Shown: positions 31,805 through 57,005 of the stretch, in pieces
How the letters are laid out: each line of letters begins with the position of its first letter
How positions within the stretch are numbered: the first letter of the stretch is position 1
Position numbers and translations under genes: made by a program
The notes under the pieces: generated by a model
Databases searched by the model: none
What the model was told of the DNA's origin: nothing
The model's input: only the letters and a program-made list of their open reading frames with translations
Assembly (NCBI GenBank): GCA_043228905.1
Contig: JBHGNT010000008.1
Span: 6,324,001-6,388,000, forward strand
DNA from: Azolla caroliniana
Taxonomy: Eukaryota > Plantae > Polypodiophyta
Length of the DNA: 64,000 nt
Reading direction: 5' to 3'

Positions 31805-33201
31805 TCAAGAGACGAGAGGCCAAGCCAAGTTATAGCCATGTGGTCTATAAATTCTACTATCAGGCCATGTATCCTCCACAATGAATCCTCTACTCGCCTC
31901 AGTCCAAGCCCCATTATCTTCAACCATTTCCGCTAGCATGAACCTCATCTTTCTAGGGCTATGTGATCTCTCTGCTTCTTCTTGCACTTTAGTAGACACA
32001 ACCAAGAATTCATCTATAGTGAGCAATTGATTGAACCTTCCATCCTCTTGTTCAATCACAACTGGAGATAACCATTCTAGCTTTGGCACGATGTACCATT
32101 TGTTGCCATTGTGACTTCGACTGTGGGCAAAGTCAAGAAACCCACTACACCTAGTCCACCATCCCATCCAATGATCTACATTGAGCTTAGCATTTTTATT
32201 AATTTCATTGGAAACATTCACAAATGACTCTGTATAAGCCGACTTGGAAGGTTTACCATACTCCGTATGAAGCAAATGACACCACAGTTCATGCTCATAG
32301 AACAAGTAACCTTTTAAGAGAGCCCGTGGCGAGACTTGTAGACTTCTTGCATGCTTTTTATTACTCTGTTCTTCAACTTTGCGGTTATGACCCATTGAGG
32401 GTGGCACAAAAAGCTTCCATAGCATAGATGCTGCATGGTCATTGCATGCTAGGTCAACTTGCTTCATTAATCGTGCTTTCCGATCATATAATGTCTCTCC
32501 AACATGTGGACCTAAAAAACAGCCTAGGAATTCATTTCTGTGCAAGGTTTCCTTCATTGGGAACCTCACCTCTCCATCAATGATTTGACCTTTGAAAGTG
32601 AAATTAGACTGTACGGGAGCTGCATCTAGGGGGAATTCACTTAATGAACTTTTCCATGCAGCACAACATGGAGTTTTTATTCCAAAAATCTCCCATGGCC
32701 CAGCATACAACAAAAATTTGACAGAAACTTCCCAATGATATATCCTAGTTTCTTCATACACTTCACAATCATCACATAAGTCTGAAGATCCACTCTCGAA
32801 ATATATAGAAATTTCGTTGACTGTAGTTTCTTCCTCAAACAGAAAATCAAACTCACCAATTGTATGAACTCGACTTTTGCCATATTTCTTGTCTATTATG
32901 ATGTCTTTTTTAGATTCATTTTTCTCATCCTCATCAATCAGTTCTTCATCCTTTGTTATTAACCTTTGAAATTCTTCACAAGGACTTCCTGCATTCAATT
33001 TGATAAGTACATGTCCTCCTATTTTTTCTGTCATCAATTCACTTAGTACTTTGCCCTTGTTTGGTATTTTGAGCTTTGATGCTTGATGAGATGGTCCAAA
33101 ATACTCCCTATGTGTTACCTGTTGAGATGTTAACAAATTCTTCACACGTGCCACAGGTGAGAAAAGCAGAATATATTCAACACAACAAGCAAAATGATCC
33201 C
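31805..33201 (-). CDS. DUF1853-like protein, exon 4 (last and largest)
   Basis: Long stop-free frame; acceptor CTCTGCTTTGTGCAG at 33202; motifs (G)DHFA, TIGEFDFL, HWEVSVKFLL, FLGP, LLKGYLFY, GWW, WYIVPKLEWLSP and RGFIVEDTWP match my recollection of the DUF1853 consensus. Confidence 0.85.
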
Positions 33202-34089
33202 CTGCACAAAGCAGAGATATGAAATTTATAGACTACATAGCTACACGAAACTCATTGAACGGAGTTCATCAAAATATCATATACAAAGAAACACTTGAAA
33301 TAATCCTCTTACCACTTTGATGTAGAAGAAAATTCAAACCACAATCATTCTGATTTACTAGCACCAAGGAGAGTGATTTTATCATTTTCCTATTTATTGG
33401 TAAGGTTATACCAGACATTAACAATCAAGTGTTATGATAACTTGCGATATGTTAGGAACTCCAAGCATAACCCACATTTTGAGCCAAGCATGATGAAGAA
33501 CTGGTGGTCTGGACTATATATCAACTTGGATGCCCCTAATACCATCATCTCGTGCACAAGGGTTACTATCTCAATCGGTGTGTAATGATGCAATATAGAC
33601 ACACCAACCTTGATAATTTGATGGTGTACGATGGGGGCTGATATGTGGTCAAACATATTGTACTATATCAGTGCAATACCATGCATGTTTGTCATGTGTG
33701 CGCAACATATTAGATATCCCTTGGTGGATATTGAGATCAGGACTTCATGGTACTTATTTCAATATCTTAACTGCCTAGACTATACATCAAGGTCACTTTG
33801 ATGCCATTGTCTAGCATTGAAAGACTTGTAATTGTCTGAAACTGTAAAATCAATGTGCAGCTAGGCAACAGCTTTAGCATCAACCACCCTACACGGTGCA
33901 CAAAAATTGTCACAGATATTCATGATCCAAAGTCCGCTTATAATTTGAATGAACTAGTTATCTTCAAAAGAATATCAGAAATATACTGATGATCTTCTTA
34001 CATTTATAGTCAAAGTAGGTAAAGTTATTTAAAAAAATTGCAAATTGAATAAAGAGAGAGAAAACCATGTTTTCTGGATCCTCCATGCG

Positions 34090-34590
34090 TGGGGAAGATA
34101 GTGGCAGATAGGGGAGAGTTGATCGCAAATGAAGCTATGGAGCTCTTTTGAACAATTAAGAGTGAAGCTCTCCCTCATGACTGCTTACAACCCAGAGGCC
34201 AGCGGGAAAATAGAGCGTGGGCATGGACCCGTAGTTAAGGCAATCATCAGAGCTTGCAAAGTACAAGTCAAAGATTGGCCCTGGTTATTGCCTTATACCT
34301 TGTGGGTCAACAGGACCACCCACAGTTCAGTGACAGGCTTCATGCCAGCCGAGCTCGTGTATGGACAAAAGTAAATGATGCACGTCGAAGAGACAATCAC
34401 GTCATGGGTAGCGATAATGTGGGAGAGCTTCACACAACAAGGATAAGACAACTCGAGAGAAGGCTAGAAGGTTTGGAGTTGGCATTGGGAAAGTTAGAAG
34501 TTGTTAGGCTCAAGTATAAGAGCAGGTTCGACAAGACGCACCGACTACGTCCCAAGAAGATCGAAGGTGACTATGTGATCAGGGGGTCTT
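34090..34590 (+). mobile_element. Ty3/Gypsy integrase fragment
   Basis: TAYNPEASGKIER, WPWLLPYTLW.NRTT.SSVTGFMPAELVYG. Confidence 0.8.
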
Positions 34591-34989
34591 GAAGGTGAGA
34601 CATCTTTATCGGAAATAGGAGATTCTGAAGCAGCTAGGATTTCAACCATGAACTCAGGTGAAAGACTAGAGTCGTCCAACTGAGACTCCACAAAATGAAC
34701 ATCCCTAGAATTAGGAATGGTGTAAGGGTTAGGAGTGATGTCAATAGGGCTGAGGAATACTCAGGATTCACCTTAGTATATGCTCTTTAGATGCAATAGT
34801 GGAGCTATGGTAGAAAAGATAGGGAGAGAGCAATAGTTGGAGGGGATCTGTATACATATCTGATGTTGTGCTTTAGGTAAGCACTTGGTGAGTACACTTG
34901 CAGGGTTCTGTGATGCTGCAAAAGAAGCATGCAAAGCCTATTAAAGTCAAAGGGGTAAAGCCTACAGATATAGACCAAGATTATTGGCA

Positions 34990-37900
34990 AGAGTTGAACG
35001 AGCTAGTTGCACATGACAGAGGGCACACCCATGTCAACTCACCTGATTGAGTTCAATTCCATTTTCAGCCAGCTAGTTGCCTTAAAATTCATCATTGGTG
35101 ATGAGTTTAAGGTCACGATTTTACTTTGCACCTTGCCAAAAAGTTGGGATACTTTCAGGACTGCTATGAGCAATTCAAATGTGATGCTTCTTTATGCCGA
35201 TGTAGAGAGTTCTCTACTCATGGAAGAGATTCGGCAAAACAATGCATCAAATAAGTCCTCTAGTGCGTTGCATACTAGGGGTAGGTCACAGCAAAGAGGC
35301 AAATTTGATAGTTATCGCCTTAGTAAATCACGTGGTAAAGATATAGAATGCCATCACAATGGCCAAAAGGGTCATCCTAAACATGATTGTTTCAAATGGA
35401 AGAAAGAGAAAGGAAAGGGCAAGAAGATAGATGATTGCATAGAAAGAGAAGAGAGACATTCAACCAAGGAAAAGCAATGCTAAAATTGAAGATAAATGTA
35501 GTCACTCATGACAGTGATAGTGGAAATGATGTACTCTTTGTCTCTTCATGCCATAGAGAACATGCTTTACTTGCAAATACGGATGGTGACATGCACACTT
35601 GGATACTCGAGTCCGGTGCAGTCCGGTGCTTCTTTTCAAGTCACCCCTAATCGTGAGTGGTTTTCAGATTACACAGGGGATCGACATGGTGTTGTCCATC
35701 TTGGGGACAACTATGCATGTGAAATTGCAGGTGTGGGATCCCGAGAAAAGAAAAATAGTACGCAGCAATGATGTTATCTTCCGGGAAAATGGCATGCATA
35801 AACCACCTGAAAAGACCAAGGAAGTACGTAGAGAAGAAATACCTTTTATACAGAAAAATGTGCACGCTGTACAGCAGCAAACACCTGCTGTAAATTTACC
35901 TGCAAATGCAGAAAATGAGGCTGGAAATGATCAGCCAACCTTTGCCCATAATGATGAGCCACCAAATGTGCAGGAACGGCTAGAACACCAAGCTGTTAAT
36001 GCTGATTTGCAAGCTGAAATGCCTAGACAGCGAGTTGAAAATGATGATTTGCAGGCTCAACAGCTACCAAACAATGAGCATTGGGTTAGGAGATCATCTA
36101 GAGTTACTAGACAGCCTGACAGATTTGTTCCTGATGCAAACAGTGTGGCTGATTATGACATGGTGACTGATTGTGGCGAACCGTCTTGCTTCAAGGAAGC
36201 AATGGACAGACAGGACAATAAGAAATGGTATAAAGCCATGTGGTCAGAGATGGAATCTCTTGAATAAAATGACACTTGGGCTTTGGTGCAGTTGCCTAAA
36301 GGGCAGAAAACACTTCAATGCAAGTGGGTTTATAAAATGAAGGCCATTTCTGATTCCTCGCCAAAGTACAAAGCAAGATTGGTTGCAAAAGGATACAAGC
36401 ACGAATATGGAGTTGATTTTGATGAGATCTTCTCGCCCCTGTAGTCAAGATGACTACATTAAGAACCATTTTGGGCTTAGTTGCAGCTAAAGATATGGAG
36501 CACATACAGGTGGATGTGAAGTCCGCCTTTTTACATGGCGATCAGCATGAAGACATATATATGCAGCAGCCTGAAGGTTTTGTGGCTAAAGACAAAGAGA
36601 AAATGGTTTGTAAGCTCAAAAAGAGTTTGTATGGGTTGAAACAAGCACCAAGAGAATGGCATCATAAATTTGATACATTAATGCAGTCTCAAAGTTTTCG
36701 TAGAAGTCAAGTGGACCACTGCTTGTACACCACGAAGGCAGGAGATGGCAGCCTGATTATCTTGGTTTTGTATGTTGATGATATGTTGATTGCTGGCAAG
36801 GATATTCATGCCTTGGATTCATTGAAGCAAAGCCTTCATGACAGCTTTGATATGAAGGATTTTGGTGATGCAAATCACATCCTTGGCATGCGAATACTCT
36901 GAAACCGCTCAAACGGGGAACTCTTTCTATCTCAGCAGGAGTATATCTCTAAGGTTTTGCAGCATTTCAATATGGAGAGGGGGAAAACAAGTGGGGTTCC
37001 ATTGCCTTCATATTTGAAACTCAGTGCAGAAAACAGCCCTATATCTGATGATGAGAAGGCTGAAATGGCCAAGGTTCCATATGCTTCAGCCGTTGGCAGT
37101 TTGATATATGCGATGGTTGCTACATGCCCTGATATTGCTTTTGCAGTGGGAGGGGTTAGTAGGTACATGGCAAATCCCGGCAAAAAGCATTGGGAAATGG
37201 TGAAAGGTATTATGAGATACCTCAAAGGCACAAAGGACTTGTGCATTTGCTTTGGAAAGCAAAAGGCATCTGTCGTTGGTTTTACGGATGCGGACTATGC
37301 TGGTCACGCAGACTGCAGAAAGTCTATTTCTGGGTATGTGTTTACTTTCATAGGAGCAGTCTCTAGGATCTCCAGGCTACAGAAGTGTGTTGAATTGTCT
37401 ACTACAGAGGCAGAGTATGTTGGTGCCACTGAGGCATGCAAGGAGGCTTTATGGCTTTCATATCTAGTGAGAAATCTTGACATTAAAGAGTTACCTATTC
37501 TTCATTGTGACAGTCAGAGTGCTATCATGCTAGCTCGGAATCCCGTCTTTCATGCAAAGACGAAGCACATACAGGTGAAGTATCACTTCATCAAAGATGT
37601 ACTTGACAGCAAGAACATTGAGCTTGTCATAGTACATATAAATGATAACCCTGCAGATCTTCTCACGAAGGGTCTTCCAGCTGTCCGATTTGCTCATTGC
37701 TGACAGATGATGGGAGTTGGATAGATGTATGTAGTTCAGCTTTGTACGTACTTGGACTTAGCTGACTTTCTTCTTCTTCTTCTTTTTTCCTCACGGCACA
37801 TTGCCTTTAGGTGGGAGGTGGTTGGGAATAAAGGGCCATCAAGCCTTTTATTAGTGCACGAGTGTGAACGCACACGTAGCACATTTTGACTTGTATATAC

Positions 37901-38043
37901 ATGTATATATCTAAAAACCAAAAAAAAACGGTACACTCTTTGTACCCAACACAGTGTGCATCTCTCTCTCTCTCCCTTTGTCTCTCACTCAGACTCTCTC
38001 ACTCTTTGGTTGACCTAAACCCTAATCCTCATGCTGCCCTTCA
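34990..38043 (+). mobile_element. 5'-truncated, internally deleted Ty1/Copia with 3' LTR
   Basis: Gag LLCTLPKSWD; most of integrase missing; RT LYVDDMLIAG and PYASAVGSL; RNase H FTDADYAG; PPT AGGTGGGAGG; LTR ~37820-38043 homologous to 45875-46097. Confidence 0.88.
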
Positions 38044-38492
38044 GATGCCTACATAATAGCTTTACTAGTCTATAAGGAATCTTAGCCTATGACCGACCCC
38101 CTTGGAGAAGAAGTTGAGGAACTACACGTGCGGAAGGATGCGAGAGAGCATGATTATGGCTATGGCTATGCGAGATGCTCGTGTTGCTGATCTATCTGAG
38201 TTTTCATCTTCATCCTATTCAGTTCATGATCTGTACTATCTTTCCATCTATGCAAATCATTCTCAAGAGAATGCATCTCATGTTGCCATCTCTCACCCTC
38301 TTCTTATATCAATGTGGTAAAACCTTCAATACATCATCAGTTCACCCAGCAAGCTTTCTAAAGCATTGGTCGCAGCCTCAGGATCATGGTTCAATCTTCC
38401 CTTCTTTGAAGCCTTGTTTCTCATCATCAAACTTGATGTCTTATTCAAACCTTGGCTATTACACAGGCGCACACATATTTCATCATCTTTCA

Positions 38493-39005
38493 TATATTGA
38501 TACATTGTGGGAATTGCATCGATTTATAATGCAGTGTTCCAAGGGGAAATAAGACGAGAAATCTATTGATGATCATCAATCTGAATTTTCTGCGGTATCA
38601 AATGGAGCTTCCCGGATACCACAGCCTATGCAAACAGGAAGTGATGCTGATGAGGAGGAGGTAGATATAGGTGATGACATGCCTGCTAAGGAGTTTCCTC
38701 CTATCGTTATCGAGAAAGAAACGGGTGCTAACGCAAAGAATAGCAATTACAGTATTTCAAGTAGTGGTTCTGGGTCTTCCTCAAGCGATTCAGTTTCTGG
38801 GAGTGATTCTGCGACTGATGATGGACGCTCTCCTAGGACAGCATCCAAAATCTCCTCTGCAAATAAGGTCTGAAAAACAAAGAGAGAGAAACCTCTACCT
38901 CAGATTGGATGTGAAAATTTGCATCTTTGCATCGTGAAAATTTGTGTGTTTTCAGTCTAAAGTGGATATTGATACTTCAATGGGCTTCATGAGAATTTGA
39001 TTACT
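38493..39005 (+). pseudogene. Captured 3' fragment of a GTE/BET (bromodomain-ET) gene, GTE2/7-like
   Basis: IDTLWELHRFI (end of ET domain), an in-frame stop, then EEEVDIGDDMPAKEFPPIVIEKE and a Ser-rich SSSGSGSSSSDS tail to a stop at 38873, then UTR-like sequence; no bromodomain nearby. Confidence 0.7.
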
Positions 39006-39039
39006 GATTGTGGTGGAGGCTGAAAGTGCCCTTCCTTGT

Positions 39040-40310
39040 GGAATGTCCCCACCGCTGGTGCAAGAACCACTTGCGGGTTTGAATCCGATTGGCTACCAAA
39101 GAGGCAGAGCCCCTGTCTATCCGGATGATGGGTTGAAAAGACTTGTAAACAAGTGGATTCCTCCTCTAGATTCAAGAAAAAGAAGGAAAAACAAGGACAG
39201 TCAGACAGCCGACCGGAGAGGGAGACGGAGGCGAACAGCCGGATAGTCGGTCCGACAATAGACGAACAAAGACGAAGGGCTGGACAGGCAGGAAGATATA
39301 CAGCAAACGGCACGCCATTTCGTAGTTGCCAGACCATGGAGACGACACGCACACAAAAGAAAAAAGAACAACATCAAAAAACCAATGGAAACAGGAGGAA
39401 GAACCCGCACCAGCCACAAGATGGGGAGCTAGAAGTAGGATCAACATGAACAGAAACCAGCAAACAAAGTGGCCGAGATAGATGATGTAAAGAAGAAGAA
39501 AATGAAGATAAAAGAGGCAAACAGAAGAAGAGGAAGATAGAGGAAGAAATCCTAGAAGGAGACAGAAAGAGGAAGAGAAAAAGCAAGACGGACAGAGAAG
39601 AAAGAAAGGATTTACAAGAGAGAAGGAATACAGGGGCATACGAATAATTTCACAAATTGGAGGGCATCAACAAGAAAAGAGAGGGCCATGCGAGGAATTT
39701 TAAAAACTGAAGGCCATCAACACAATTTTTAAAAACTTGAGGGCAAGCAATAAAATTCCAAAAAATCAAAGGGCATCAATAAAATTTTGTAAAATCACGA
39801 TAACTCACATAAAATAAAATAAAAACACACACACAACATTGTAAGACCTAAAAGAAAGTACCAAAGTTACCATGTTAGGGGATGTTCCGACCGAACGAGA
39901 GGTTCGTGTTGTTGAAATATAAGTTTGTGTTACGCGTGTTCCAGTCAAGGGAGTTCCGACCGTCACGATAGGAGATGACCGAGGGGGTTTTGGTCCAAGG
40001 TCCAATGTTCGTGTTTATTAAAGGCATGTGGGTTCAGCCATGCAAGGCACTGTCCCACCAGGCGTGTCAAATTATTGTGTTGTCTCTGTCGACCGACAAA
40101 GGGTCGGACGTCTTAATCACTAAGTCGTCCTATCAAGAAGATTGTGGTTGGAGATGGAATGTTTGTCGACTAGGATAAATGCTTACTCAGAACATCACAC
40201 AGACATTAATTACTCAAACTTGATTAATTAGATTATGGCATTCGATTATGATCGACTGTTAGTTATAAATATAATCTGTGTAATAGAGAAAACGAATCAG
40301 AACATCCGAC
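39040..40310 (-). mobile_element. Probable Gypsy (Tat/Athila-like) LTR plus PBS remnant
   Basis: Minus-strand PBS-like TGCACCAGCGGTGGGGAC at ~39062-39045; low-complexity noncoding LTR-like sequence upstream; boundaries uncertain. Confidence 0.35.
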
Positions 40311-41055
40311 ACAGTAAGTACTCTAACTACCAAAATTATATTATTAAACCAAAACAGACTGATGTTGATACAATGCTCTTGGCCCCTTTTTATAGGCAAC
40401 CTGAGAGACTTTTCCAAGATAATACACTTCCCTGTTTGGCAAGAACCTACAGTTACAGTAGCTGTTCTATTTTCTAAATTACTCTATTTTCTACTTTGGC
40501 AAAAATACAATATCGATTACTATCTTTTCACACTCTTCCAACTCTGACTCCAACTCCTCCTATCGACCTTTACATTTCGGGTAGCCAACCAGCTAGCAAA
40601 AACAGTGGTTGTATTTACAATCTTACTTTAATTTTTCGCCAATGTTTACACATGCCTAAGTGCACCACAGCAAAGCCGATTATATCTATCAAGTGTATTA
40701 AGTTTTGGTCCTATAACCTTCAAGGTATTCATGGACATAAACACAAATTTCATTTTCTTCTCTCATATTTGACATTTGAGGACAATAATAAACCTTTCTA
40801 TCTCTTTCTTTTCACCCAAACAAGGTTTCAGCCCACTAATACATGGTTTCTTTCTAACCCTCCCCAGGATGTTTTTTCATCGTTCAAGCTCTAATTAAAA
40901 CAACATACACATTTACTACGCAGCATGAACTGGCAAAAAGGCAAAGAAAAGAAAACGTTCTTCGAATTTTTTCAAGGAATATTCTTCCTGGATTTAAGGC
41001 ATAGGTTAGCTTGGACCTCTTTCAAAAATAAAATACCACATTAAAGGAGACATAC

Positions 41056-41188
41056 CTAGTCTTCTATTGTTTCTTTTTGTTTCAAACCACTCTTTGACAT
41101 GGTCCACCTCAATTGTAGCAAGCCATTTTGCAGAGTCAGACCAGTTTTTACATCCTCCACCAATCAAGTCAGAGCAAACCATCGGAAG
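41056..41188 (-). CDS. DUF1853-like protein, exon 3
   Basis: TTTTTTTGTAG|CTTCCG...AGACTAG|GTATGT; encodes LPMVCSD...AKWLATIEVDHVKEWFETKRNNRRL(G); phase-1 join to exon 4 gives RRLGDHF. Confidence 0.85.
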
Positions 41189-41292: not shown

Positions 41293-41353
41293 CTCAAGAG
41301 AGTCAATAAGTAATGGTGGGCTTGAAATCACCATACCAAGATCTCTAAGAAGT
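41293..41353 (-). CDS. DUF1853-like protein, exon 2
   Basis: AATAG|ACTT...CTTGAG|GTACAT; encodes LLRDLGMVISSPPLLIDSLE, like the DUF1853 N-terminal VRDLAW..SPPLL motif; 104-bp intron to exon 3. Confidence 0.85.
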
Positions 41354-43115
41354 CTATTCATCAAGAAATTGTAGATAAATTGTAAGAAAATGTGACAACC
41401 ATTTAAAATATAGAATATGCTCAATAATGTGACCATTTAACAAGTATATCACCAAGTCATAACAAGAACTACAAGAAACTTTAAAGAAACATTTTATGTA
41501 GTCAACATTAGAATGGTTTGGTATGTCTGTAACTTCAATTCACATTACAAGGGGCTGAAATGAACTGCACCTTTAAATTGCAGTCATAATTCCTAATTTA
41601 ATCTTTCAACCCAATCTTAAAATTGTGAGCGCTCCAATTATGGGTGTTGGTAAGATCATTTTGAATACTGTTGATGGTAGTTCTTTCACCTTGTCAGATG
41701 CTTTGTTTGTGTCAATGATCAAGAAAAATTTGTTGTAAGTTTCAGCTTTGGCCAAGCTTAGCTTGGTTGTTAAATTTGTTGTTAACATGTGAACAGTCCA
41801 TGATCTGTCCAATGGCAATGTTATTATTGTTTCTGCCATTTAATGCCGTGGGTTGTAAAAGCTCATAGATTATAAAATATCTATAAATGATTCAGCATGG
41901 GCAATACAGGATTCTCATGCTATTTCAGATGCAAAGGTTTGGCATGCACGCTTTGGTCATTTGATTTTTGCAAGTTTGCTTCACCTGCAGAAATCTAAAA
42001 TGTTGTCCTCCTTGCCTAAACTTGAGGCACCTCGAAAGCATGTCTATAAAGGTTGTATTTTGGGAAAAATGCAACGTTCATCCTTTCCAATAGACGGTTT
42101 AGTTAGAGCTACGCAGAAATTGCACCTTGTTAATAGTGATGTTTGTGGTCCTATGCAGACACATTCTCTTGGGAACTATCTTTATTTCGTGACTTTCATT
42201 AATGATTTTTCCAGCATGCATGGGTACATCCATTGACGGCAAAGTCTGAAGTGTTTATGTGCTTGAAACAATTTCTAGCTTTGGCTGAAGACTTGTCAGC
42301 ATGTAAAATGGGCACCCTCAGTTCTAATTAGGAGGGGTTGTTGGGTTTCTAGCTGAACGTTGTTGGGTTCTTGTTTTGAGCACAAAAGCTACCCCACTTT
42401 AGGGTTATGAGAGTATTTATAGACGAGGGGAAAAAACCTCCTAAAGAGGGAAAAAATGTCCTTATAATCCTAAGTGTGTTCACACACATCATTGTTGTAG
42501 GTGTGTTCACACACACCATGGTCATCAGTGTGTTTACAAACATCACTACTGAAATATATCAACAAATCCCCCTTGGGAGTGATGCGGTGAACAAGGAGTT
42601 GGCACTCATGGTTATTGAAGTGCGAAGCTATGTGGACAAAGATCAATCCACAAATGAAATAGGCTTAAAGATTTTCTAAAAGCTTCAAACTTCTCCGTAG
42701 ACAGAGCCTTTGTGAAAAGGTTTGCAATGTTCTCCTATGTGGGGACATGAGCCAAACTTATCTCCCCAACAGAGAACCTTTCCCTAACAAAAAGCTTCAA
42801 ACTTCTCCCTAGGCAAAGCCTTTGTGAAGAGGTCTGCAATGTTCTCCTATGCGGGGACATCAGCCAAATTTATCTCCCTAGCGGAGAAACTTTCCCTGAC
42901 ATAGTGATAATGCACCTCAATGTGCTTAGTGCGACCATGGAACACAGGGTTCCTCGCAACTGCCAATGCGCTTTGACTGTTAGTGAAGATGGTGGTGGCA
43001 ACATACTAACCAACACCCAAATCAGCTAAAAGGCATCTAAGCCACACACACACTCAACTGTAGTTGTGAAAGCAGTCCTATACTCAGCCTCACAACTGGA
43101 AGTGGCCACAGTAGG

Positions 43116-46097: not shown

Positions 46098-46226
46098 ACA
46101 ATAGGTTTACAATCTTTAAGACCAAAACGCTACAATAATATGTCAATGTATTTCGATTGACACAAAACTATTCCACCAACTTGAAAATATTGAATGCCCA
46201 AATAATGATGCAAATGCCCCAAATCT

Positions 46227-46451: not shown

Positions 46452-46548
<97 letters not shown>

Positions 46549-46856: not shown

Positions 46857-46935
<79 letters not shown>

Positions 46936-47215
46936 GTACAACGATACAACAGAACAACTACAATGATGATCACTCTAACTACTAACAGTGTTGCCCTAAT
47001 TATATTTATACTTATATAACTTTGGGGCTATTTACAAATATGATCTCAATGGTCATGTCTGAACATATTTACTAATATGTTCCTATTTGTTGGTTCATAC
47101 CCAATCCAGCCGACTCCTTCCAAATCCATCCGGTCCGGTTCCTTCCTTCCTCCCGTCTAATCCGACTCGTCCGGTTCTCATCTGGATCCCATCAGGAGGG
47201 ACCTATTTCCCAACA
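46227..47215 (-). mobile_element. Solo LTR (family X, 989 bp) with two (CT)n tracts and a ~180-bp internal duplication
   Basis: Perfect TSD AATCT at 46222-46226 and 47216-47220; TG..CA ends; CT runs ~46456-46543 and ~46861-46932. Confidence 0.9.
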
Positions 47216-48675
47216 AATCTGACATCTCAAAAGAGGCATTCAAATCAGCCTTAAAGTCAGCAATGTGTTTCTCATTGGGAACAGTGAGCAACATATCATC
47301 AACATACACAACCATGATCAGAAATACATCGTCAACACGCTTAACATATAAGGTGCTTTCAGTTGAACTATTCTCAAAACCAAATGCAATCAAATAGGCA
47401 TGTATCTTTTCATACCAAGAATGTGGCACTTGCTTCAAGCCATAATGCCTTTCTCAACCTGCACACTTTGTGTTCATGCCCTTTTTGCACCAAACCATGG
47501 GGCTGAGATATATACACTTCCTCATGAAGATCACCATTTAGAAATGTTTTAATGTCCAACTAATGTACATTCCGACCATGATGAGGTGCAATTCCACAGA
47601 TGCTACAAACAGTAGTCATACAGCAGGTGGAAGCAAAGGTCTCATCAAAATCAATGCCTTTTTTGGGGCATAACCTTTCGCAACAAGTCTAGCCTTATAC
47701 CTGTCAATTGTTCCATCAAGTTTACACTTCAGCTTATATACCCACTTAGTGCCAATGGCGTTCTTGCCAGGAGGCAAGTCACATAAAGACCATGTACCAG
47801 TCTTTATAATAGCATGATATTCTGATTGCATAGCAGCCATCCAATTTTCTGAATTTTGTGCTTCATCAAAAGAAACAAGCTCATTCTAATCACAAAGATT
47901 AGAGGCAGCCATAGCATAACAATTTGATGCAAAAAAAGCACTATGAGAACCTGAACGAGTACGGTATGACAAAGGAACATCTAATTTGCTATCTTGCAAA
48001 GTCTACAACAGCCATTTAGGCACAGTCTTTGCCTGCTCTAGATCAGCCCTCTCATCAGTAAGTGCATCATCTAAGTCTGCATCAGAAATGGAACGATCTG
48101 CATCATTATGTGTAGCTTCCAAAGGCTGAGAAGGTGCCTCAAGTGGGCCAACACTTAACTGTCCACTTGTAGAATGCGGCAGCAAAGTTTCATACACGTG
48201 TCTCGAGCTAACTGATGACAGCCTCAAGCCAGAAACTATGTGGTAAAGCTTGACATTTGACCATACACCTCACCATTTCTATGAGTGACATGTTCTTTCT
48301 TTCAGCAACTCCATTCTGTTGAGGGAGGTGTATACAGCAATGTACGTTGATGTTTTATCCCACGTTCAGCCAGAAATGGATTAAAAACAGAAGACATATA
48401 CTCCCCCCCTCAATCAGAATGGAGGGTGCCCATTTTACATGTTGACAGATGTTCAACCAAAGCTAGAAACTGTTTGAAGCACAGAAACACTTCGGACCTT
48501 GCCTTCAATGGATATACCCATGCATGCCTAGAAAAATCATCAATGAAAGTCACGAAGTCAAGATAGTTCCCAAGAAAATGTGTCTACATAGGAGCACAAA
48601 CATCACTATGAACAAGCTGCAATTTCTGTGTAGCATTAACTGAACCATCTTTTGGAAAGGATGAACACTGCATTT

Positions 48676-49050
48676 TAGGGATGGGCAATGGTTCGGCTCA
48701 AGCCTAAACCAGTTTAAAGCGGCTTAGCGACTTGGCTTGGCTTGGCATGAACCTTGCCAAACCGGTTCAAACTGGTTAAGCCGATTCTTAATAGGTCTTA
48801 GTACATACTTAAAAGTTTAAAAGTTAGAACAATTAAAAAATTTAAGTTATAGTTAGAACTTAGATAGTAGAAGGCTGAAGCAAAGAATCGAGTGTCGAGT
48901 GTCCGCAGTTGACATAGACATTGAAAAGAGAGGGGGAGTGTGATTGAAAATTAGAATTTTTATTGTCCATAAAGAGGCCAATTTGGACCTATGGGACCAG
49001 AGTATACATGTGTTCTTGATATGTGTCTCTTTCCTACAAAAGGGTATTCA
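48676..49050 (+). mobile_element. Truncated hAT-like transposon end
   Basis: Begins TAGGGATGGGCAATGGTTCGG with AACC/GGTT subterminal repeats; shares the GCAATGGTTCGG core with the 13743 element; no right TIR found. Confidence 0.5.
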
Positions 49051-50353
49051 TACATCATGAGCATGAGTAAGATGATCAACATCCTCAACAAAATCAGTAC
49101 CATCAGCATTTGTGTTCACAACAACAAGATGTTTTTCCACACTCTAAACCACATTCCACAACCCTTTTGCTAGTAATACATGGCGCATCATATAAGCCCA
49201 AAGAGGATAATTTGTTCCATCCAATTTATCGTCAACAAAAAGCATCCAAAATACATCATTGCTCTCAGCCATTGCCATTGACAAAACATGTTTTGATGCA
49301 GAAAATAGATTGTTGAAAGAATAAAAAGGAATAACGTACCTCTTTGACTTAAAAGATGAACCAATGAAGAGAAAAGTAAGCAAATCTGATTTCTGTGCAG
49401 CAACCGCACAAAAGAGGGTTGTGGGAAGGTCGTAGAAGACTCAAGGAGGCTTTTAGTAGGATTGAATCAATTTGAAGTAGAAAAATGCAACTAAAACTAT
49501 GCACAAAGGAATAGAAAACACGCAGAAATTTGTTTTGCAATAGGAAAACGCCACCACAGATGGCGCACACGGACTATGGAAGGGGGCCATCACCTTGTTG
49601 TTCACTCGTTGCGTTGCTGCTCAAACGTCTTTTAGTTGCTTTGATACCACTATTGGGTTCTTGTTTTGAATCACAAAAACTACCCCACTTTAGAGTTATG
49701 AGAGCATTTATAGACAGGGGGGAAAACCCTCCTAAAGAGGGAAAAAATGTCGTTGTAGTCCTAATTGTGTTCACACACATCATTGCCGTATACACCTCTA
49801 CAAAATGGAGTTGTTGAAAGAAAGAACAGGTCACTCATGGAAGTGGCGAGGTGTATGGTCAAAACTCAAGCTTTACCACATAGTTTCTGGCTTGAGGCTG
49901 TCATCAATTAGCTCGAGACATGTGTATGAAACTTTGTTGCCGCATTCTACAAGTGGACAGTTAAGTGTTGGCCCACTTGAGGCACCTTCTCAGCCTTTGG
50001 AAGCTACACATAATGATGCAGATCATTCCATTTCTAATGCAAACATACATGATGCACTTACTGATGAGAGGGCTGATATAGAGCAGGCAAAGACTATGCC
50101 TAAATGGTTGTTGCAGACTTTGCCAGATAGCAAATTAGATGTTCCTTTGTCATACATACCGTACTCGTTCAAGTTCTCATAGTGCTTCTTTTGCATCAGA
50201 TTGCATCAGACAGGTATAAGGCTAGGCTTGTTACAAAAGGTTATGCCAAAAAATGGCATTGGTTTTGATGAGACCTTTGCTCCCACCTACCATATGACTA
50301 CTGTTCGTAGCATCTGTGCAATTGCAGCTCATCGTGGTTGGAATGTACATCAG

Positions 50354-53300
50354 TGCTAACATATTTTGGTAGTGATGTGTGTGAACACACTTAGGAAAAT
50401 GATGTGTGAACACACTTAGGATAGTGATGTGTGTGAACACACTTACGACCACAAGGGCATTTTTACCGTCTTTCGGAGGTTTTTTCCCCCTATCTATAAA
50501 TACTCTCATAACCCTAAAGTGGTTAAGTTTTTGTGATTCAAAACAAGAACCCAACAGTGCTATCAGATCCATTAAGCAAAGTTTGAGCAGCAATGCAAGA
50601 GCAAGGGTACGGCTCCCATACGCAGTTTGTCCACGCCATCTATGGTGGCATTTTTCTACTGTTGCAAAACAATTTTTTGTGTGTTTCCTTCCTCTACGCA
50701 GTTTCAGTTGTGTTTTTCTTCTGCTTCCAAGTCAATTCAATCCTACTAAAAGCCTCCTTGAGTCTTCTACAACATTCCTACAACACTCATGTGCGGTTGC
50801 TACATAGAAATCAAATTTCCTTCCTTTTCTCTTCATCTTCTAAGTCAAAGAGGTACTTTATTGCCTTTTATTCATTCAGCAGTCCATTTTTTGCATCAAA
50901 ACGTGTTCAATCAATGGCCATGGCTAAGAGCAATGATGTATTTCGGATGCTTGTTGTTGAGGATAAATTGGATGGAACAAATTACCCTCTGGGCTTATAT
51001 GATGCGCCATGTATTAGTAGCAAAAGAGTTGTGGAATGTGGTTCAGGGGTTGAAAAACGCCCTATTGTTGAGAACACAAACGTCGATAGTATTGATTCTA
51101 TCGAGGATGTTGATCATCCTACTCATGCTCATGCTACAGTTTCTATTGTACCAAATGCAGAGCAACTTCGTTGGGATGGCAGAGATGCTCAGGCACATGC
51201 TTTGATAGCTTTGTTTGTGAAACGTGCCATTATTCCCCATGTTTGCTCTTGCAAGACAACAAGGGATGCTTGGTATACTCTTACCACTTTGTACCAAGCA
51301 AGAAATGAGGCTCGTGGTGCTTATCTCCGAAAACAGTTGGAGAGTGAGCACATGAACGAAGGCGATTCTATGGACAGCTCTCTTACGAAAATCAAAGATT
51401 TAATTTCTGTTGATGAAATGATACCAGATAGTTCACTTGTGCAAACTGTTCTAAATGGCCTTCCTAATTCATATCAGAGTTTTGCTTCTAACTCTTCATT
51501 TAAAGATGAAAGGTAATCCCAATGCCTTATCGTTCGAGGAGTTAGTTGCAAAACAGGTCTATTATGTGTGTTCTAGATCAAGCTTTCCTAGCTAGTCAAA
51601 AGGGCAAAGGTAAATGGAACTCTTCTGTTAGCAAGAAGGGATTTGCTAATACTTCACAAGTGAATGAAAAAAAACAAGAGCAAAAACAAAATTGTTTTGC
51701 AAATACTATAAAGGAACTAATCATATTATAAAGAACTGTCCAAATTTGGCTGCAAAAGAGGCAAAGAAAAAAGAGGCAGGACTGGTTGTTGCAGAAGTCT
51801 CACCACCAAAAACAAAGTCTACAAATCATGTCCAAAATGAAGAATGGGCATTTACTACTGTTTGCAGTTTTGACCCATCTTCACTTGATCAATGTATGTT
51901 TGCTATAGAATCATATGTTTGCTACTTCGACAGTGGGGCAACCAACCATATTACCTTGCAACGCAATTTCCAATCTTCATTGGAGCCTGCCCCTATAGGG
52001 AATACTGTGACATGCACCAACAACTCATCTTATCCAGTTATGGGTGTTCGTAAGATCATTTTGACTACTGCTAATGGTAGTTCGTTCACCTTGTTAGATG
52101 GTTTGTTTGTGCCAGGTATCAAGAAAAATCTGTTGTCAGTTTCAGCATTAGCCAAGATTGGCTTGGTTGTTAAATTTGTTGATGGCAGGTGTACAATTCA
52201 TGATCTGTCCAATGGCAATGTTATTATTGCTTCTGGCGTTTTATGTCGTGGGTTGTATAAGCTCATAGATTATGAAAGATCTATAACTGATTCAGCATGT
52301 GCAATACAAGATTCTCAAGATATTACAGATCCAAAAATTTGGCATGCACGCTTTGGTCATCTGAATTTTGCAAGTTTGCTTCACCTTTAGAAATCTGAAA
52401 TGGTGTCCTCCTTGCCCGAACTTGAGGCACCTCGGAAGCATGTCAGTGAAGGCTGTATTTTTTTCGCAAATGCAACGTTCATCTTTTCCAAAAGATTGTT
52501 CAATTAGAGCTACGCAGAAATTGCAGTTTGTTCATAGTGATGATGTATGTGGTCCTATGCAGACACATTCCCTTAGGAACTATATTTACTTCGTGACTTT
52601 CATTGATGACTTTTCCAGGCATGCATGGGTATATCCATTGAAGGCAAAGTCCCAAGTGTCTCTGTGCTTCAAACAATTTCTAGCTTTGGCTAAAAATCTA
52701 TTATCATGTAAAATGGGCACCCTCCATTTTGATCGATGGGGGGAAGTATATGTCTTCTGATTTTAATGCATTTCTGGCTGAACGTGGGATAAAACATTAG
52801 TGTACAATGCCATATACACCTCAACAAAATGGAGTTGGTGAAAGAAAGAACAGGTCACTCATGTAAATGGCGAGGTGTATGGTCAAAAGTTAGGCTTTAC
52901 CACATGGTTTCTGGCTTGAGGCTGTCATGTGTGCAACATATGTACTTAACAGGTGTCCCACTAAAGCACTTTACTCTATCACTCCATATGAGGCTTGGCA
53001 TGGCCGCAAGCCATCTGTTGCTCATTTGCGTATTTTTGGTTGTTTGGCATATGCATTAGTGCCTAAACAACAACGCAAAAAATTGGATGCTAAAGCAGTG
53101 AAATGTATTTTTGTTGGATACATTTCTGAAAGTAAAGCCTATCGACTATATCATCCACAAACTAAACGCATTCTAGCTAGCCGTGAATGCTGTTTTTGTG
53201 GAGGATGCAATTCAACCATTGCTTTCATGCACTACGGAGACATCAGTTAGCTCGAGAGATGTGTATGACATTTTGCTGCCTCTTTTTATAAGTGGACAGT

Positions 53301-55556
53301 TAAGTGTTGGCCCACTTGAGGCACCTTCTCAGCCTGTGTAAGCTACTCACAATGATGCAGATCATTCCATTTCTGATACAGACTTACATGATGCACTTAC
53401 TTATGAAAGGGTTGATATAGAGGAGGCAAAGATTGTGCCTAAATGGCTGTTGTTGACTCTGCAAGATAGCAAATTAGATGGTCCTTTGTCATACCGTACT
53501 CGTTCAGGTTCTCATAGTGCTTCTTTTGCATCAGATTGCTATGCTATGGCTGCCTCTAATCTTTGTGATTAGAATGAGTCTGTTTCTTTGGATGAAGCAC
53601 AAAATTCAGAAAATTGGATAGGTGCTATGCAATCAGAATACGATGCTATCATGAAGACTGGTGCATGGTCTTTATGTGACTTGTCTTTATGGTGCATGGT
53701 CTTGATGAAAGGGCTGATAAAGAGGCAAAGACTGTGCCTAAATGGCTGTTGCAGACTTTGCAAGATAGCAAATTAGATGGTCCTTTGTCATACCGTACTC
53801 GTTCAGGTTCTCATAGTGCTTCTTTTGCATCAGATTGCTATGCTTTGGCTGCCTCTAGTCTTTGTGATGAGAATGATCCTGTTTCTCTTGATGAAGCACA
53901 AAATTCAGAAAATTGGATAGCTGCTATGCGATCAGAATACGACGCTATTATGGAGACTGGTGCATGGTCTTTATGTGACTTGCCTCCTGGCAAGAAGGCT
54001 ATTGGCACTAAGCGGGTATATAAGCTAAAGCGTAATCCTGATGGAACAATTGACAGGTATAAGGCTAGGCTTGTTGCGAAAGGTTATGCCCAAGAAAAAG
54101 GCATTGATTTTGATGAGACCTTTGCTCCCACCTACCGTATGACTACTATTCGTAGCATTTGTGGAATTGCACCTCATCATGGTTGGAATGTACATCAGTT
54201 GGACATTAAAACAGCATTTCTAAATGGTGATCTTCATGAGGAAGTCTATGTATCTCAGCCCCATGGTTTGGTGCAGAAAGGGCATGAACACAAAGTGTGC
54301 AGGTTGAGAAAGGCATTATATGGTTTGAAGCAAGCACCATGCTCTTCGTATGAAAAGATACACGCTTATTTGATTGCATTTGGGTTTGACAATAGTCTAA
54401 CTGAAAGCACCTTATATGTTAAGCGTGTTGACGATGTATTTCTAATCATGGTTGTGTATGTTGATGATATGTTGCTCACTGGACCCAATGAGAAGCACAT
54501 TGCCAACGTTAAGGCTGATTGGCATGCCTCTTTTGAGATGTCAGATTTGGGGCATTTGCATCATTATTTGAGCATCCAATTTAGGCAAGTTGATGGTGGA
54601 ATATCTTTGTGTCAATCAAAATACATTGACAAATTATTGCGGCGTTTTGGCCTTGAAAACTGTAAACCTATTGCCACTGCCATGGAGACAGGTTTATGTT
54701 TGAGCCTTCATGATGCTAGAGATGCATTTGATGTTATTCTCTATCAGCAAGCAATTGGGTGCTTGATTTACTTATGCATAACCCGACCTGATATTCAGTT
54801 TTCTGTCCCTCAGATGAGCAGGTTTATGCATTGCCCAAGAGTTAATCATTGGCAGGCAGTTAAGCGCATCTTTCGCTACTTGAGTGGTGCCTGGTCACTT
54901 GGATTGTTTTATCCCAAGGGGGGATCATTACCTCCAAACCTGCATGCTTTTTCTGACTCTGATTGGGCTGGTTGTTATGACACTCATGTGTTCACAAGTG
55001 GTTTTTGCTTCATGCTTGGTAGCTCATGCATATTTTGGTTGAGCAAGAAGCAACATACTGTGGCCACTTCCAGTTGTGAGGCTGAGTATAGGGCAGCTTT
55101 CACAACTATCGTTGAGTGTGTGGCTCAGACGCCGTTTAGCTGATTTGGGTGTTGGTCAGTCTTCTGTCATCACCATCTTCACTGACAGTCAAAGCGTAAT
55201 GGCAGTTGCGAGGAACCCTGTGTTCCATGCTCGCACTAAGCACATTGAGGTGCATTATCACTATGTCAGGGAAAGGTTCTGCGCTGGAGAGATCAGTTTG
55301 GCTTATGTGCCCACACAAGAGAACATTGCAGACCTCTTCACAAAGGCTCTGCTCTGCCTAGGGAGAAGTTTGAAGCTTTCCACAAAGCTTTAGACCTACT
55401 CCCATTTGTGGATTGATCTCTATCCACATAGCTTGGCACTTGCTTAACCATGAGTGCCAGCTCCTTGTTCACCGCATCACTCCCAAGGGGGATTTGTTAC
55501 ATATTTTGGTAGTGATGTGTGTGAACACACTTAGGACAATGATGTGTGTGAACACA
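50354..55556 (+). mobile_element. Copia family Y, copy D, near full length, pseudogenised
   Basis: 5' LTR 50354-50556; degenerate PBS 50558-50569; gag, YFDSGAT protease, integrase, RT ORF 53689-55143 (VYVDDMLL), RNase H; PPT CAAGGGGGAT; truncated 3' LTR from 55495; ~300-bp tandem duplication at ~53405-53985. Confidence 0.92.
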
Positions 55557-56808
55557 AAAATGATTCATATCCAGCATGACTCACTACAATTCTAGAATGT
55601 AGAATACAATTCCCAATGAACATCACTATTAGAGCTCTCATTTTCGCAAATAACGGTTGCCACTTCATGGATGAACTTCCTTGTATTGTTTTTTTTTTCC
55701 TGAGAAAAATACTTTAATGATGGATGTCTTGTTTTGCCAATGTCACATGTCTCTATGTTGTAACAATCTTCATAATATAGTTGTTGCAACCACAAGAGTT
55801 TAACACTTCTTTGAATCTTTGACAGCATAAACTTCTTCAACATGGATGCTTGAAGAGCTTCCTCTATTCTTATAGCTCAAATGATCAATTACAGTCAATT
55901 CTAATTGTCAATGATGGGAGATGTTGGAAGCTGAAGCATCATTCTAATAGCCGCCATAGTTTTCGTTGCCACTATGGCTCTAATGGAGTCCCTCAATGAA
56001 TCACTAGAATCGATTATATACCTAGTTACTTGAATCTTAATTGTGCCTTATCCCTGTACACAGTTGAAGCATATACATAAATAAGTCACCAAGAAGATCC
56101 CAGTGACTAGGTTGACGGAACCCCGTTAGTGCCATGGCAGGGACAACAATTACAGGCAATGGAAGGTCCACATTGCACAGTCATGACGGAGCTACCAGCA
56201 TCATTTGACTCGTTTACTGTTCATTGCTTTGACTTCCAAAGTCTTGAAAGCTACAGCATGGAATGGATATGACAACAATTCTAACAATTCCTCCCTGAGA
56301 ATGTCTATAACAAAGGCAGATCAATTGTTCCTTGATGCGCATAGAAGAAAGAAGTACAATTAAACATCTCTAGAAGACCATAATAACCTTTAAGACCTGA
56401 CAAAGATTACTAAGTGTATGGTTAACAACTCGAAGGTATGATGCCATAGAACAAATTGGAGCGAAATCTATAAGGGGAATTATTAGCAAGGAAGAATTTG
56501 AGCTTAGTCGACCATAATTTTTACTTTTATCGGATATTTTAGTGTTGAAACATAGAAAGACCTCATACGGATCACGGTTGTGCCACTGCAAAGGCGGGCA
56601 ATGCCTGCCCTGTTCTAGTGAGACTGCATCGCCTTTCTCTGCACCACACACTGTTGCTCGTCTATTCTCATTGCTTCCTAGCCGACGATCATTGGCAAGC
56701 GAGGGCCATTGTTTCTAATAATAAAAAACTCGATACAAACATGGACTGCTAGTGCATATTACGACATCGACCTCACACACAGACTCGAGAAAACAGCGTA
56801 AAGCTTAC

Positions 56809-57005
56809 TTGTGAGGCAGACGTTTGAGAAAGCTCCATGGATCCATGGCGGCGCAGAAGAAGGTGGGTGAGGGGGGGGAGGAGGAGGGTACAAAGGAGCC
56901 ATGAGTGGGAGACGTCCTTCCAATCCTGTGGAAGGAGCCGGAGCTTTCCTCTCCGGGACGGCATCGCATGTCGGGGAAGCTTGTAGAGGAAGCCATCGCT
57001 TGCAT
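56809..57005 (-). CDS. DUF1853-like protein, exon 1 (putative organellar transit peptide)
   Basis: GC-rich exon MQAMASSTSFPD...PSSSPPSPTFFCAAMDPWSFLKRLPH(K); donor CACAA|GTAAGC in phase 2 matches the phase-2 acceptor of exon 2. Confidence 0.7.

What the first reader, a model, noticed from the sequence alone, without database searches (positions are those of the whole stretch)
31805..57005. Spliced plant gene for a bacterial-type DUF1853 putative nuclease with a transit-peptide-like N-terminus
Seen: four minus-strand exons with GT-AG sites join in compatible phases (2, 0, 1) into 1788 nt = 595 aa + stop. The junctions rebuild LPHK-LLRDLG..SPPLL and RRLG-DHF, followed by GEFDFL, HWEVSVKF, KGYLFY and RGFIV..WP. 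The ORF track shows only the last exon. Knowledge (from memory): this motif series matches Pfam DUF1853, a mainly bacterial uncharacterised family assigned to the PD-(D/E)XK nuclease-like clan, and I do not know it from model angiosperms. Inference: an intact, intron-bearing gene with promoter motifs and a MASS-type Ser/Pro/Arg-rich leader could encode an undescribed plastid or mitochondrial nuclease-like protein. It may be of HGT or endosymbiotic origin, or restricted to certain lineages.
Basis: partly seen in the sequence, partly recalled or inferred. Interest (0 to 1): 0.88.

Follow-up and report, generated by a model that had tools for sequence, protein, structure and literature searches.

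The report
Fern nuclease-like gene with chlamydial signature
This is a real, intact, intron-containing plant gene (most likely a fern's) for an unstudied protein predicted to cut nucleic acid; relatives occur from algae to Amborella but none turned up in other flowering plants, and it shares an unusual active-site change with Chlamydia-like bacteria, which may mark an ancient gene transfer.

Summary
Four exons give 595 aa without internal stops, exon 4 hits DUF1853 (E=1e-19), and all three introns appear as joints in RNA-like contigs of relatives. Plant DUF1853 is not news: a 2010 paper notes plant, algal and Phytophthora members, and this scan met the family before in a protist and a fungus. 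No function study was found.

New here:
(1) Orthologues run from Chara to Amborella; no other angiosperm was seen.
(2) Catalytic D249/E288/K292/K372 are kept, but the motif-I Glu is Ala, with an Asp one helix turn earlier. Only 4 of 284 bacterial rows share this; three are named Chlamydiae and the fourth is 74% identical to one.
(3) Without those columns, eukaryotic rows form one clade, and the best trees found put these chlamydial rows beside it. Other trees do not, and no alternative is rejected.
(4) A frameshifting second acceptor occurs in three relatives.

The transit peptide is plausible in ferns but not conserved in conifers, and a strong second ATG follows it. Best guess: a Mg-dependent nuclease acting on structured RNA ends (0.35).

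The parts
56809..57005 (-). Exon 1 coding part (197 nt): 56-aa Ser/Thr-rich leader and the start of the conserved core; ATGs at 57005, 56996, 56969 and 56846
   Evidence: intron 1 joint in X2 and X15
56844..56846 (-). Second in-frame start candidate M54 (GCCGCCATGG context), 3 codons before the conserved core; would give a leaderless form (inferred)
   Evidence: a Met within 16 residues of the core in most land-plant homologues shown
41293..41353 (-). Exon 2 (61 nt)
   Evidence: joints
41056..41188 (-). Exon 3 (133 nt), ends inside the RLG codons before the motif-I helix
   Evidence: joints
31805..33201 (-). Exon 4 coding part (1397 nt with stop): motif-I helix, catalytic core, plant-specific inserts and C-terminal subdomain
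   Evidence: Pfam PF08907 E=1.3e-19; 58 homologues; joint in X3
33188..33199 (-). D132-H-F-A135: variant motif I (Ala where nearly all bacteria have Glu; Asp three residues earlier)
32846..32848 (-). D249, predicted metal ligand (motif II, GEFD)
   Evidence: invariant in alignment A1; assignment from PMC3045609
32717..32731 (-). E288-x-x-x-K292, variant motif III
   Evidence: PMC3045609
32477..32479 (-). K372, second conserved lysine in the helix after GPH
   Evidence: PMC3045609
33116..33120 (-). Alternative 3' splice site (AG|GT, exon restarts at 33118); removes 83 nt, frameshift, stop at codon 134
   Evidence: joint 33115/41053 (cut +3) in X2, X14, X3; translation
41354..56808 (-). Intron 1 (15.5 kb) filled with decayed copia LTR retroelements, mostly antisense to the gene
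   Evidence: joint
33202..41055 (-). Intron 3 (7.9 kb) with an antisense copia element
   Evidence: joint
57027..57119 (-). Two telo boxes (57027-57035, 57047-57055) and one site-II-like hexamer (57114-57119) upstream of the first ATG
   Evidence: 2 of the 5 nonamer matches in the 64 kb window lie here; meaning of the pair from the abstract of PMC3022908
31400..31804 (-). 3' UTR, at least 400 nt in a relative
   Evidence: X3 contig covers 31400-33120

Best explanation
The locus is an intact four-exon gene, spliced as modelled in related species, for a DUF1853 protein that is predicted to be a magnesium-dependent PD-(D/E)XK nuclease and likely trims or cuts structured RNA ends (tRNA/rRNA quality control) rather than serving defence. 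Shown: gene structure, family, conserved D249/E288/K292/K372, and the Glu-to-Ala change in motif I with an Asp one helix turn earlier. Predicted: D249 and E288 hold the metal, K292 and/or K372 activate water or bind the scissile phosphate, D132 stands in for the lost Glu, and the aromatic C-terminal subdomain holds the substrate. Inferred: the long form (first ATGs) enters an organelle, most likely the plastid; a short form from M54 stays in the cytosol or nucleus; the frameshifting acceptor lowers output. The gene entered eukaryotes once from a bacterium, most likely a chlamydial one (about 0.5), and was probably lost in flowering plants after Amborella.
For: Gene. Fold: an AlphaFold model of a bacterial homologue (pLDDT 94) matches many PD-(D/E)XK chains over residues ~70-218 (XisH-like Z 5.5, Card1 5.3, SduA 4.9, AddAB 4.5, UPF0102 4.4); the top Foldseek rows are mostly the same superfamily. 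A fern orthologue model has a confident core with the inserts as low-confidence loops. RNA lean: 3 long eukaryotic homologues (Aphanomyces, Lagenidium, Chromera) plus one unnamed protein fuse the domain to a 3'-5' exonuclease, two of them also to a tRNA-editing YbaK domain. 6 of 38 named families among closely co-oriented bacterial neighbours are RNA-related (Mut7-C, RtcB, SpoU, RsmB, YqcC, an RbgA-type GTPase), against 1 DNA-repair family. The telo-box/site-II promoter is typical of ribosome-biogenesis genes. Published chlamydia-derived plant genes include many plastid RNA enzymes. Not defence-like: one match per genome in all but one positive genome, no PADLOC hit, neighbours differ by lineage. 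Origin: signature in 4 of 284 bacterial rows; trees.
Against: No activity data exist. All fold scores are under Z 8, and Foldseek gave no E<=0.001. In the exonuclease fusions the catalytic Asp is Lys, so they may reflect a binding role only. 32 of 38 named neighbour families are not RNA-related, 31 of 69 neighbour families got no name, and the excess was not tested statistically. A uracil-DNA glycosylase gene is tightly coupled upstream in Burkholderiaceae-type loci. Leaders are acidic in conifer-type homologues and absent in Selaginella. Trees did not group eukaryotes with the four chlamydial rows, and AU tests reject nothing, not even Pseudomonas-type rows as sister.
Confidence: 0.35

Rival explanations
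1. It is an active structure-specific DNA nuclease for repair or recombination (flaps, abasic or mismatch sites, organelle DNA), working like NucS, MGME1 or AddAB nuclease domains.
For: Most solved PD-(D/E)XK matches act on DNA. A family-4 uracil-DNA glycosylase gene lies directly upstream in 3 loci of 3 lineages plus Mycetohabitans. A YbiB-like gene is coupled in 3 lineages. A basic helix just before the catalytic hairpin in land plants could bind DNA or act as a nuclear signal.
Against: Only 1 of 38 named coupled families is a clear DNA-repair gene. The eukaryotic fusions carry RNase D-like and tRNA-editing domains. The basic helix is weakest in this very protein (7 basic, 7 acidic of 26 residues).
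Confidence: 0.25
2. The eukaryotic and chlamydial form is a weak or dead enzyme that is kept as a nucleic-acid-binding or scaffold protein.
For: The motif-I Glu is lost in all full-length land-plant rows shown. The SAR fusions have Asp-to-Lys, and a second fern paralogue has Lys-to-His/Gln. The plant inserts are long. A frameshifted isoform is common.
Against: D, E and both K are kept from Chara to Amborella in the main copy. Motif I is the least conserved motif of the superfamily (PMC3045609). An acidic residue is conserved one turn earlier.
Confidence: 0.2
3. It hydrolyses a small nucleotide or an RNA cap (as DXO/Rai1-type PD-(D/E)XK enzymes do; recalled) rather than a polymer backbone.
For: Most coupled neighbours are metabolic genes; NAD kinase is the divergent neighbour in Pseudomonas-type loci. 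The C-terminal subdomain weakly resembles part of ligase adenylation domains (Z 3.0-4.9).
Against: No DXO/Rai1 chain is among the 50 rows shown in either VIA search (not an exclusion). The ligase-like scores are at background level. Neighbours do not converge on one pathway.
Confidence: 0.1
4. Origin rival: the eukaryotic clade came from another bacterium (Planctomycetes, a proteobacterium, or the plastid or mitochondrial ancestor), and the shared motif in Chlamydiae is convergence or a back-transfer from a protist host.
For: Searches do not recover eukaryotes plus the four chlamydial rows (0 of 200 bootstrap trees). The two chlamydial pairs are only about 36% identical and do not form a supported clade. 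One unfinished mixture-model search put two rows, one a Planctomycetota-sample row, next to eukaryotes. Simple models are reported to give false chlamydial groupings (abstract of PMC4374161).
Against: The two-site signature is confined to these four rows among 284, to 1 of 64 metagenome rows (a near copy of one of the four) and to 0 of 36 genome-sample rows. The highest-likelihood trees under both models keep them beside eukaryotes. The chlamydial proteins are compact, lack eukaryotic inserts and fall outside the eukaryotic clade.
Confidence: 0.45

Closest known systems
DUF1853 / PF08907 / COG3782, predicted PD-(D/E)XK family (Laganeckas et al., PMC3045609; Steczkiewicz et al., PMC3424549)
   Same: Pfam hit above cut-off; colinear with the ~310-aa bacterial proteins end to end; motif II Asp, EXXXK motif III and second helix Lys all present; eukaryotic members are longer, as the paper notes.
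   Different: The paper calls motif I canonical, but here it is D-x-x-A instead of x-x-x-E. It has a leader and several long inserts. No function is known for any member.
Deposited land-plant orthologues (Amborella XP_006850873.2, Physcomitrium XP_024379016.1, Cryptomeria XP_057869636.2, Adiantum GOP47_0025288, Pteridium EukProt EP00250_P007312)
   Same: Same motifs; 34-40% identity over exon 4 for those aligned end to end; genomic ORFs of several homologues also begin just before GDHF, consistent with the same intron site.
   Different: This protein, with one unnamed 61% relative, is sister to the polypod-fern sequences. Its basic helix is eroded. All are labelled uncharacterised.
DUF1853 proteins of Candidatus Protochlamydia phocaeensis (WP_068470455.1), Ca. 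P. naegleriophila (PNK_0750) and a Chlamydiales MAG (MFT4551527.1)
   Same: The only named bacterial proteins seen with the plant-type motif-I change.
   Different: Compact, no inserts or leader, about 30% identical to a fern orthologue; sister position not firmly supported.
Oomycete and Chromera DUF1853 + 3'-5' exonuclease (+ YbaK) fusions
   Same: Same eukaryotic clade; motif-I Glu also lost.
   Different: Catalytic Asp is Lys; fused partners are absent in plants.
Chlamydia-derived plant genes (Moustafa et al., PMC2376095; Becker et al., PMC2490706)
   Same: Similar pattern of green plants plus plastid-bearing SAR lineages with Protochlamydia nearby; many listed genes are plastid RNA enzymes.
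   Different: DUF1853 is not named in either main text or in the three Moustafa supplements held. Support here is lower than for most of their entries.

Membership tests
Pfam DUF1853 (PF08907) | Score above the curated cut-off | tested here: met
   71.3 bits against 25 on exon 4 alone
Pfam DUF1853 (PF08907) | Colinear with full-length bacterial members | tested here: met
   All conserved blocks align in order once inserts are set aside
PD-(D/E)XK nuclease superfamily | Core fold (helix, three strands, helix, strand) | tested here: inconclusive
   Tested on homologue models, not on this protein. Many superfamily chains match at Z 4-6, none at 8 or more; no Foldseek hit at E<=0.001
PD-(D/E)XK nuclease superfamily | Motif II Asp | tested here: met
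   D249, invariant in A1
PD-(D/E)XK nuclease superfamily | Motif III Glu and Lys (EXXXK in this family) plus helix Lys | tested here: met
   E288, K292, K372
PD-(D/E)XK nuclease superfamily | Motif I Glu/Gln (least conserved, optional in the cited classifier) | tested here: not met
   A135 where 280 of 284 bacterial rows have Glu; D132 three residues earlier
PD-(D/E)XK nuclease superfamily | Metal-dependent phosphodiesterase activity | not testable with these tools
   No assay; none found in print
Plastid-targeted protein | N-terminal extension rich in Ser/Thr and poor in Asp/Glu | tested here: met
   56 aa, S+T 29%, D+E 7%; four other fern leaders of 54-66 aa have S+T 15-30%, D+E 7%
Plastid-targeted protein | Same kind of leader across orthologues | tested here: not met
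   Four conifer-type leaders have D+E 23-30%; Selaginella has 7 residues, Amborella 27
Plastid-targeted protein | Predictor score or import experiment | not testable with these tools
   No TargetP-type tool on hand
Chlamydia-derived eukaryotic gene | Eukaryotic homologues form one clade | tested here: met
   99/95 and 100/99 for the rows sampled; a reported fungal member was not included
Chlamydia-derived eukaryotic gene | Well-supported grouping with Chlamydiae under a site-heterogeneous model | tested here: inconclusive
   82/52; 87.9 aLRT and 87 UFBoot from a seeded search; absent; AU rejects nothing; mixture searches unfinished
Anti-phage defence or restriction nuclease | Defence-family profile or conserved partner gene such as a methylase | tested here: not met
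   0 PADLOC hits for 6 of 6 proteins; neighbours differ by lineage and no partner recurs family-wide

The most novel reading that the evidence does not exclude
This is an unlisted chlamydial gift to photosynthetic eukaryotes: a PD-(D/E)XK nuclease with a rewired active site (carboxylate moved one helix turn) that entered early, spread to SAR lineages where it became a dead module on an RNA-trimming exonuclease, persisted for hundreds of millions of years in streptophytes as an active, dual-start, splicing-throttled organellar RNA-processing enzyme, and was dropped by flowering plants after Amborella.
Probability: 0.15. Interest if true: 0.75.

Novelty: new variant of a known kind. Interest (0 to 1): 0.48.

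Why it matters
DUF1853 has no known function anywhere. A conserved nuclear gene in Physcomitrium and Ceratopteris makes it testable by knockout in plants, and its apparent loss in most angiosperms explains why Arabidopsis genetics never met it. If the chlamydial link holds, it adds a case with a discrete shared character, not only a tree, to the disputed question of chlamydial genes in plants. The shifted carboxylate would be a further variant of PD-(D/E)XK active-site plasticity. If the link fails, it remains an ordinary uncharacterised orthologue of a family whose plant members were already noted.

Tried and rejected
No whole genome is held, so copy number and synteny in this organism were not checked. 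No run is on record as RNA; expression rests on spliced joints in contigs of relatives, and contig depths cannot rank the two isoforms. No sequence match to solved structures, NCBIfam or PADLOC. The ESM Atlas search gave nothing outside DUF1853. The IMG/VR scan gave 0 relatives among 63 pattern matches. The homodimer job on a bacterial homologue returned no verdict. The RbcS-like (Z 6.5) and ligase-subdomain (Z<=4.9) matches to the C-terminal ~95 residues are background level and were not used as evidence; that domain was not folded alone. DXO/Rai1 was considered from a recalled motif likeness and did not appear among the rows shown. A metagenome scan for more chlamydial-type sequences gave only a near copy of one already held. 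The full C20 mixture test timed out and was replaced by PMSF. A pseudouridine synthase neighbour was dropped from the RNA count because it is convergent, not co-oriented. Homologue searches covered 156-1409 aa plus one length-free profile scan showing only the best 150 of 2267 hits, so absence from other angiosperms means not found, not proven. Literature searches: DUF1853 3 papers, COG3782 1, PF08907 and gene ids 2 relevant; the origin searches listed nothing about this family by title or abstract start. Subscription papers, bioRxiv supplements and the supplements of the two NAR papers and of PMC2490706 were not seen and could mention it.
Full report
**1. The observation.** They have GT..AG ends and phases 2/0/1, and join to 1788 nt = 595 aa with no internal stop. 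Only exon 4 appears among ORFs of 120 aa or more. It scores 71.3 bits on Pfam DUF1853 (cut-off 25, E=1.3e-19). Introns 1 and 3 are 15.5 and 7.9 kb and hold decayed copia elements.

Of 20 runs listed I laid 6 different ones, 4 per call; all are contigs of related organisms and none is on record as RNA. Intron 1 is joined in X2 and X15 (2 of 4), intron 2 in X2, X3 and X15, and intron 3 as modelled in X3 (1 of 4). A second joint from the same donor to 33118, 83 nt into exon 4, occurs in X2, X14 and X3 (3 of 4); it shifts the frame and stops at codon 134. RefSeq isoform X2 of Amborella also lacks the segment starting at this intron (39 aa, in frame), so dropping the motif-I helix by splicing may be an old habit. 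That is inference from one other species.

**2. What it is.** A search with exon 4 gave 58 homologues. Named ones are from Adiantum, Ceratopteris, Pteridium, Selaginella, Diphasiastrum, Physcomitrium, Sphagnum, Cryptomeria, Ginkgo, Taxus and Amborella. A profile scan found 2267 clusters at E<=0.001, of which 150 were shown; named eukaryotes among the 20 I looked up include Chara, Closterium, Aphanomyces, Lagenidium and Chromera. In a plant tree of 51 rows this protein and one unnamed relative group with polypod-fern rows (88 SH-aLRT; 100/97), so the host is probably a fern outside that group. Amborella is the only angiosperm named, and no unnamed row joined it at 80% support or more; one 147-aa fragment (P0150) is unresolved among seed plants. 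A second paralogue, named in two Adiantum species, has His or Gln for the motif-III Lys.

PMC3045609 (passages including its DUF1853 section) already reports eukaryotic members in plants, algae and Phytophthora, the EXXXK motif and the extra helix Lys. PMC3424549 (one table row) lists the function as unknown and places the Anacystis (Synechococcus elongatus) sequence inside a Proteobacteria clade. So a bacterial-type DUF1853 in a plant is known; its function is not.

**3. Anatomy.** The plant protein is colinear with the ~310-aa bacterial proteins, plus a leader and long inserts. An AlphaFold model of a bacterial homologue (pLDDT 94) matches many PD-(D/E)XK chains over residues ~70-218 at Z 4-6, and a separate C-terminal subdomain matches only at background level. 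A fern orthologue model (pLDDT 78) has the same core with the inserts disordered; its fold searches were weaker (best Z 4.5). I did not fold the joined protein itself.

D249, E288, K292 and K372 are kept. Motif I is not canonical. Of 284 rows I classed as bacterial (by length and exclusion; most are unnamed and some redundant), 280 have Glu and 4 have Ala with Asp three residues earlier, as the land-plant rows do (Asp, or Glu in polypod ferns). Three of the four are named: a Chlamydiales MAG, Protochlamydia phocaeensis and P. naegleriophila; the fourth is 74% identical to the first. In 64 of 80 metagenome loci where the motif could be parsed, 1 had it, a near copy of the P. naegleriophila protein. 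In 36 rows from genome samples of three phyla, 0 had it. Other eukaryotic rows vary (Ala in most; Glu, Gln, His or Ser in some).

**4. Origin.** I removed the two signature columns before building the trees from then on. I had named the chlamydial group from the motif, and had already seen P0140 next to eukaryotes in a first FastTree. Eukaryotic rows formed one clade in every tree (99/95; 100/99).

For the chlamydial link: with 85 rows the careful LG+G4 tree grouped eukaryotes with all four chlamydial rows at 82/52. With 83 rows (23 of the 86 rows dropped, 20 more diverse bacteria added), the constrained tree was 20 log units better than the first free search. A free search seeded from it kept the group at aLRT 87.9, aBayes 0.94, UFBoot 87 (61 iterations; the seed favours it). 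Under PMSF with a guide tree lacking the group, that topology still scored best of five, by 7.8 over the guide tree.

Against it: quick trees and the first careful 83-row tree did not recover it (0 of 200 bootstrap trees; a set with the Protochlamydia pair, a Planctomycetota-sample row and two unnamed rows was sister in 82 of 200). AU tests reject no alternative, including Pseudomonas-type rows (p 0.20-0.48). Unfinished PMSF searches gave either the four rows plus two others, or two other rows first, as sister. PMC4374161 (abstract) warns that simple models create chlamydial groupings. I put the chlamydial link at about 0.5. No cyanobacterial row was in the trees; the family rang in only 1 of 14 control genomes, S. 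elongatus. DUF1853 is not named in PMC2376095 (passages, supplement search, first half of Table S1) or PMC2490706 (passages), though unnamed hypothetical entries could hide it.

**5. Function.** In bacteria the gene is patchy and nearly always single: 26 of 251 Pseudomonadota, 5 of 121 Planctomycetota, and 8 of 121 genomes in the phylum of an Ignavibacteria genome. It has no PADLOC hit, and its neighbours change with lineage. Across 195 loci (78 lineages at 50% identity) there were 69 families of closely co-oriented neighbour ORFs; 38 got a Pfam name, 6 RNA-related and 1 DNA repair. That is a lean, not a test. Four long eukaryotic homologues of 27 scanned carry a 3'-5' exonuclease, two also a tRNA-editing domain, and two others a BSD domain; in the exonuclease fusions the catalytic Asp is Lys. 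Two telo boxes and a site-II-like hexamer lie within 115 nt of the first ATG, an arrangement reported for ribosome-biogenesis genes (PMC3022908 abstract). Together these favour RNA-end processing (0.35) over DNA repair (0.25), a dead binding module (0.2) or a small-nucleotide hydrolase (0.1).

**6. Targeting.** The 56-aa leader has 29% Ser+Thr and 7% Asp+Glu, like four other fern leaders; four conifer-type leaders are acidic, and Selaginella has none. That transit peptides are Ser/Thr-rich and acid-poor is recalled knowledge; no predictor was available. M54 has a strong start context and many homologues have a Met near the same place, so two starts are plausible. I rate organelle import of a long form at about 0.4.

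**7. Verdict.** A real gene, correctly read, in a known but uncharacterised family whose plant members were noted in 2010 and which this scan met before in a protist (e1-9958909) and a fungus (e1-7323999). What my searches did not find in print is the motif-I variant shared with Chlamydiae, the apparent loss after Amborella, the degenerate fern paralogue and the unproductive acceptor. New variant of a known kind; interest 0.48.

Noticed in passing
window 62718-63998 (-): Open frame of 427 aa (stop-to-stop, near the window end) with a Myb/SANT-like domain (PF13837, E=1.8e-18): a trihelix-type factor or Harbinger-derived gene upstream of the DUF1853 gene on the same strand.
   Followed up: partly
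window 17983-28584 (+): A Ty3/gypsy element (capsid, protease, integrase) that appears to be interrupted by a copia element at about 19571-24421.
   Followed up: partly
window 41354-56808: Intron 1 holds several related copia fragments, some in opposite orientation (opposite-strand joints and many two-place fits), yet relatives splice precisely across the same exon ends.
   Followed up: no
P0025, P0027, P0029, P0032, P0125, P0258: A second DUF1853 paralogue (named in two Adiantum species) with motif-III Lys changed to His or Gln and the GPH loop altered: a likely pseudo-nuclease kept in several species.
   Followed up: partly
P0207, P0214, P0222, P0233, P0247: Oomycete/Chromera-type DUF1853 with catalytic Asp changed to Lys; four of the five are fused to a 3'-5' exonuclease and two also to YbaK.
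   Followed up: partly
P0182, P0212, P0257: Unnamed eukaryotic homologues with an N-terminal extension (BSD domain found in the two scanned); P0182 carries exactly the chlamydial form of motif I.
   Followed up: partly
L046, L065, L067, L079, L193: In Ignavibacteria the gene lies directly upstream of a Ub-Mut7C/Mut7-C RNase gene, echoing the Mut-7-type exonuclease fusion in oomycetes.
   Followed up: partly
P0059 (Amborella isoform X2): Lacks 39 aa beginning at the same intron as exon 4 here, which removes the motif-I helix in frame.
   Followed up: partly
L183, L185, L186: Short (about 250 aa) DUF1853 forms with Gln at motif I, next to a NIF3/DUF34 gene.
   Followed up: no
window 8856-9308 (+): A 150-aa stop-to-stop frame with no Pfam hit; unexplained.
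   Followed up: no
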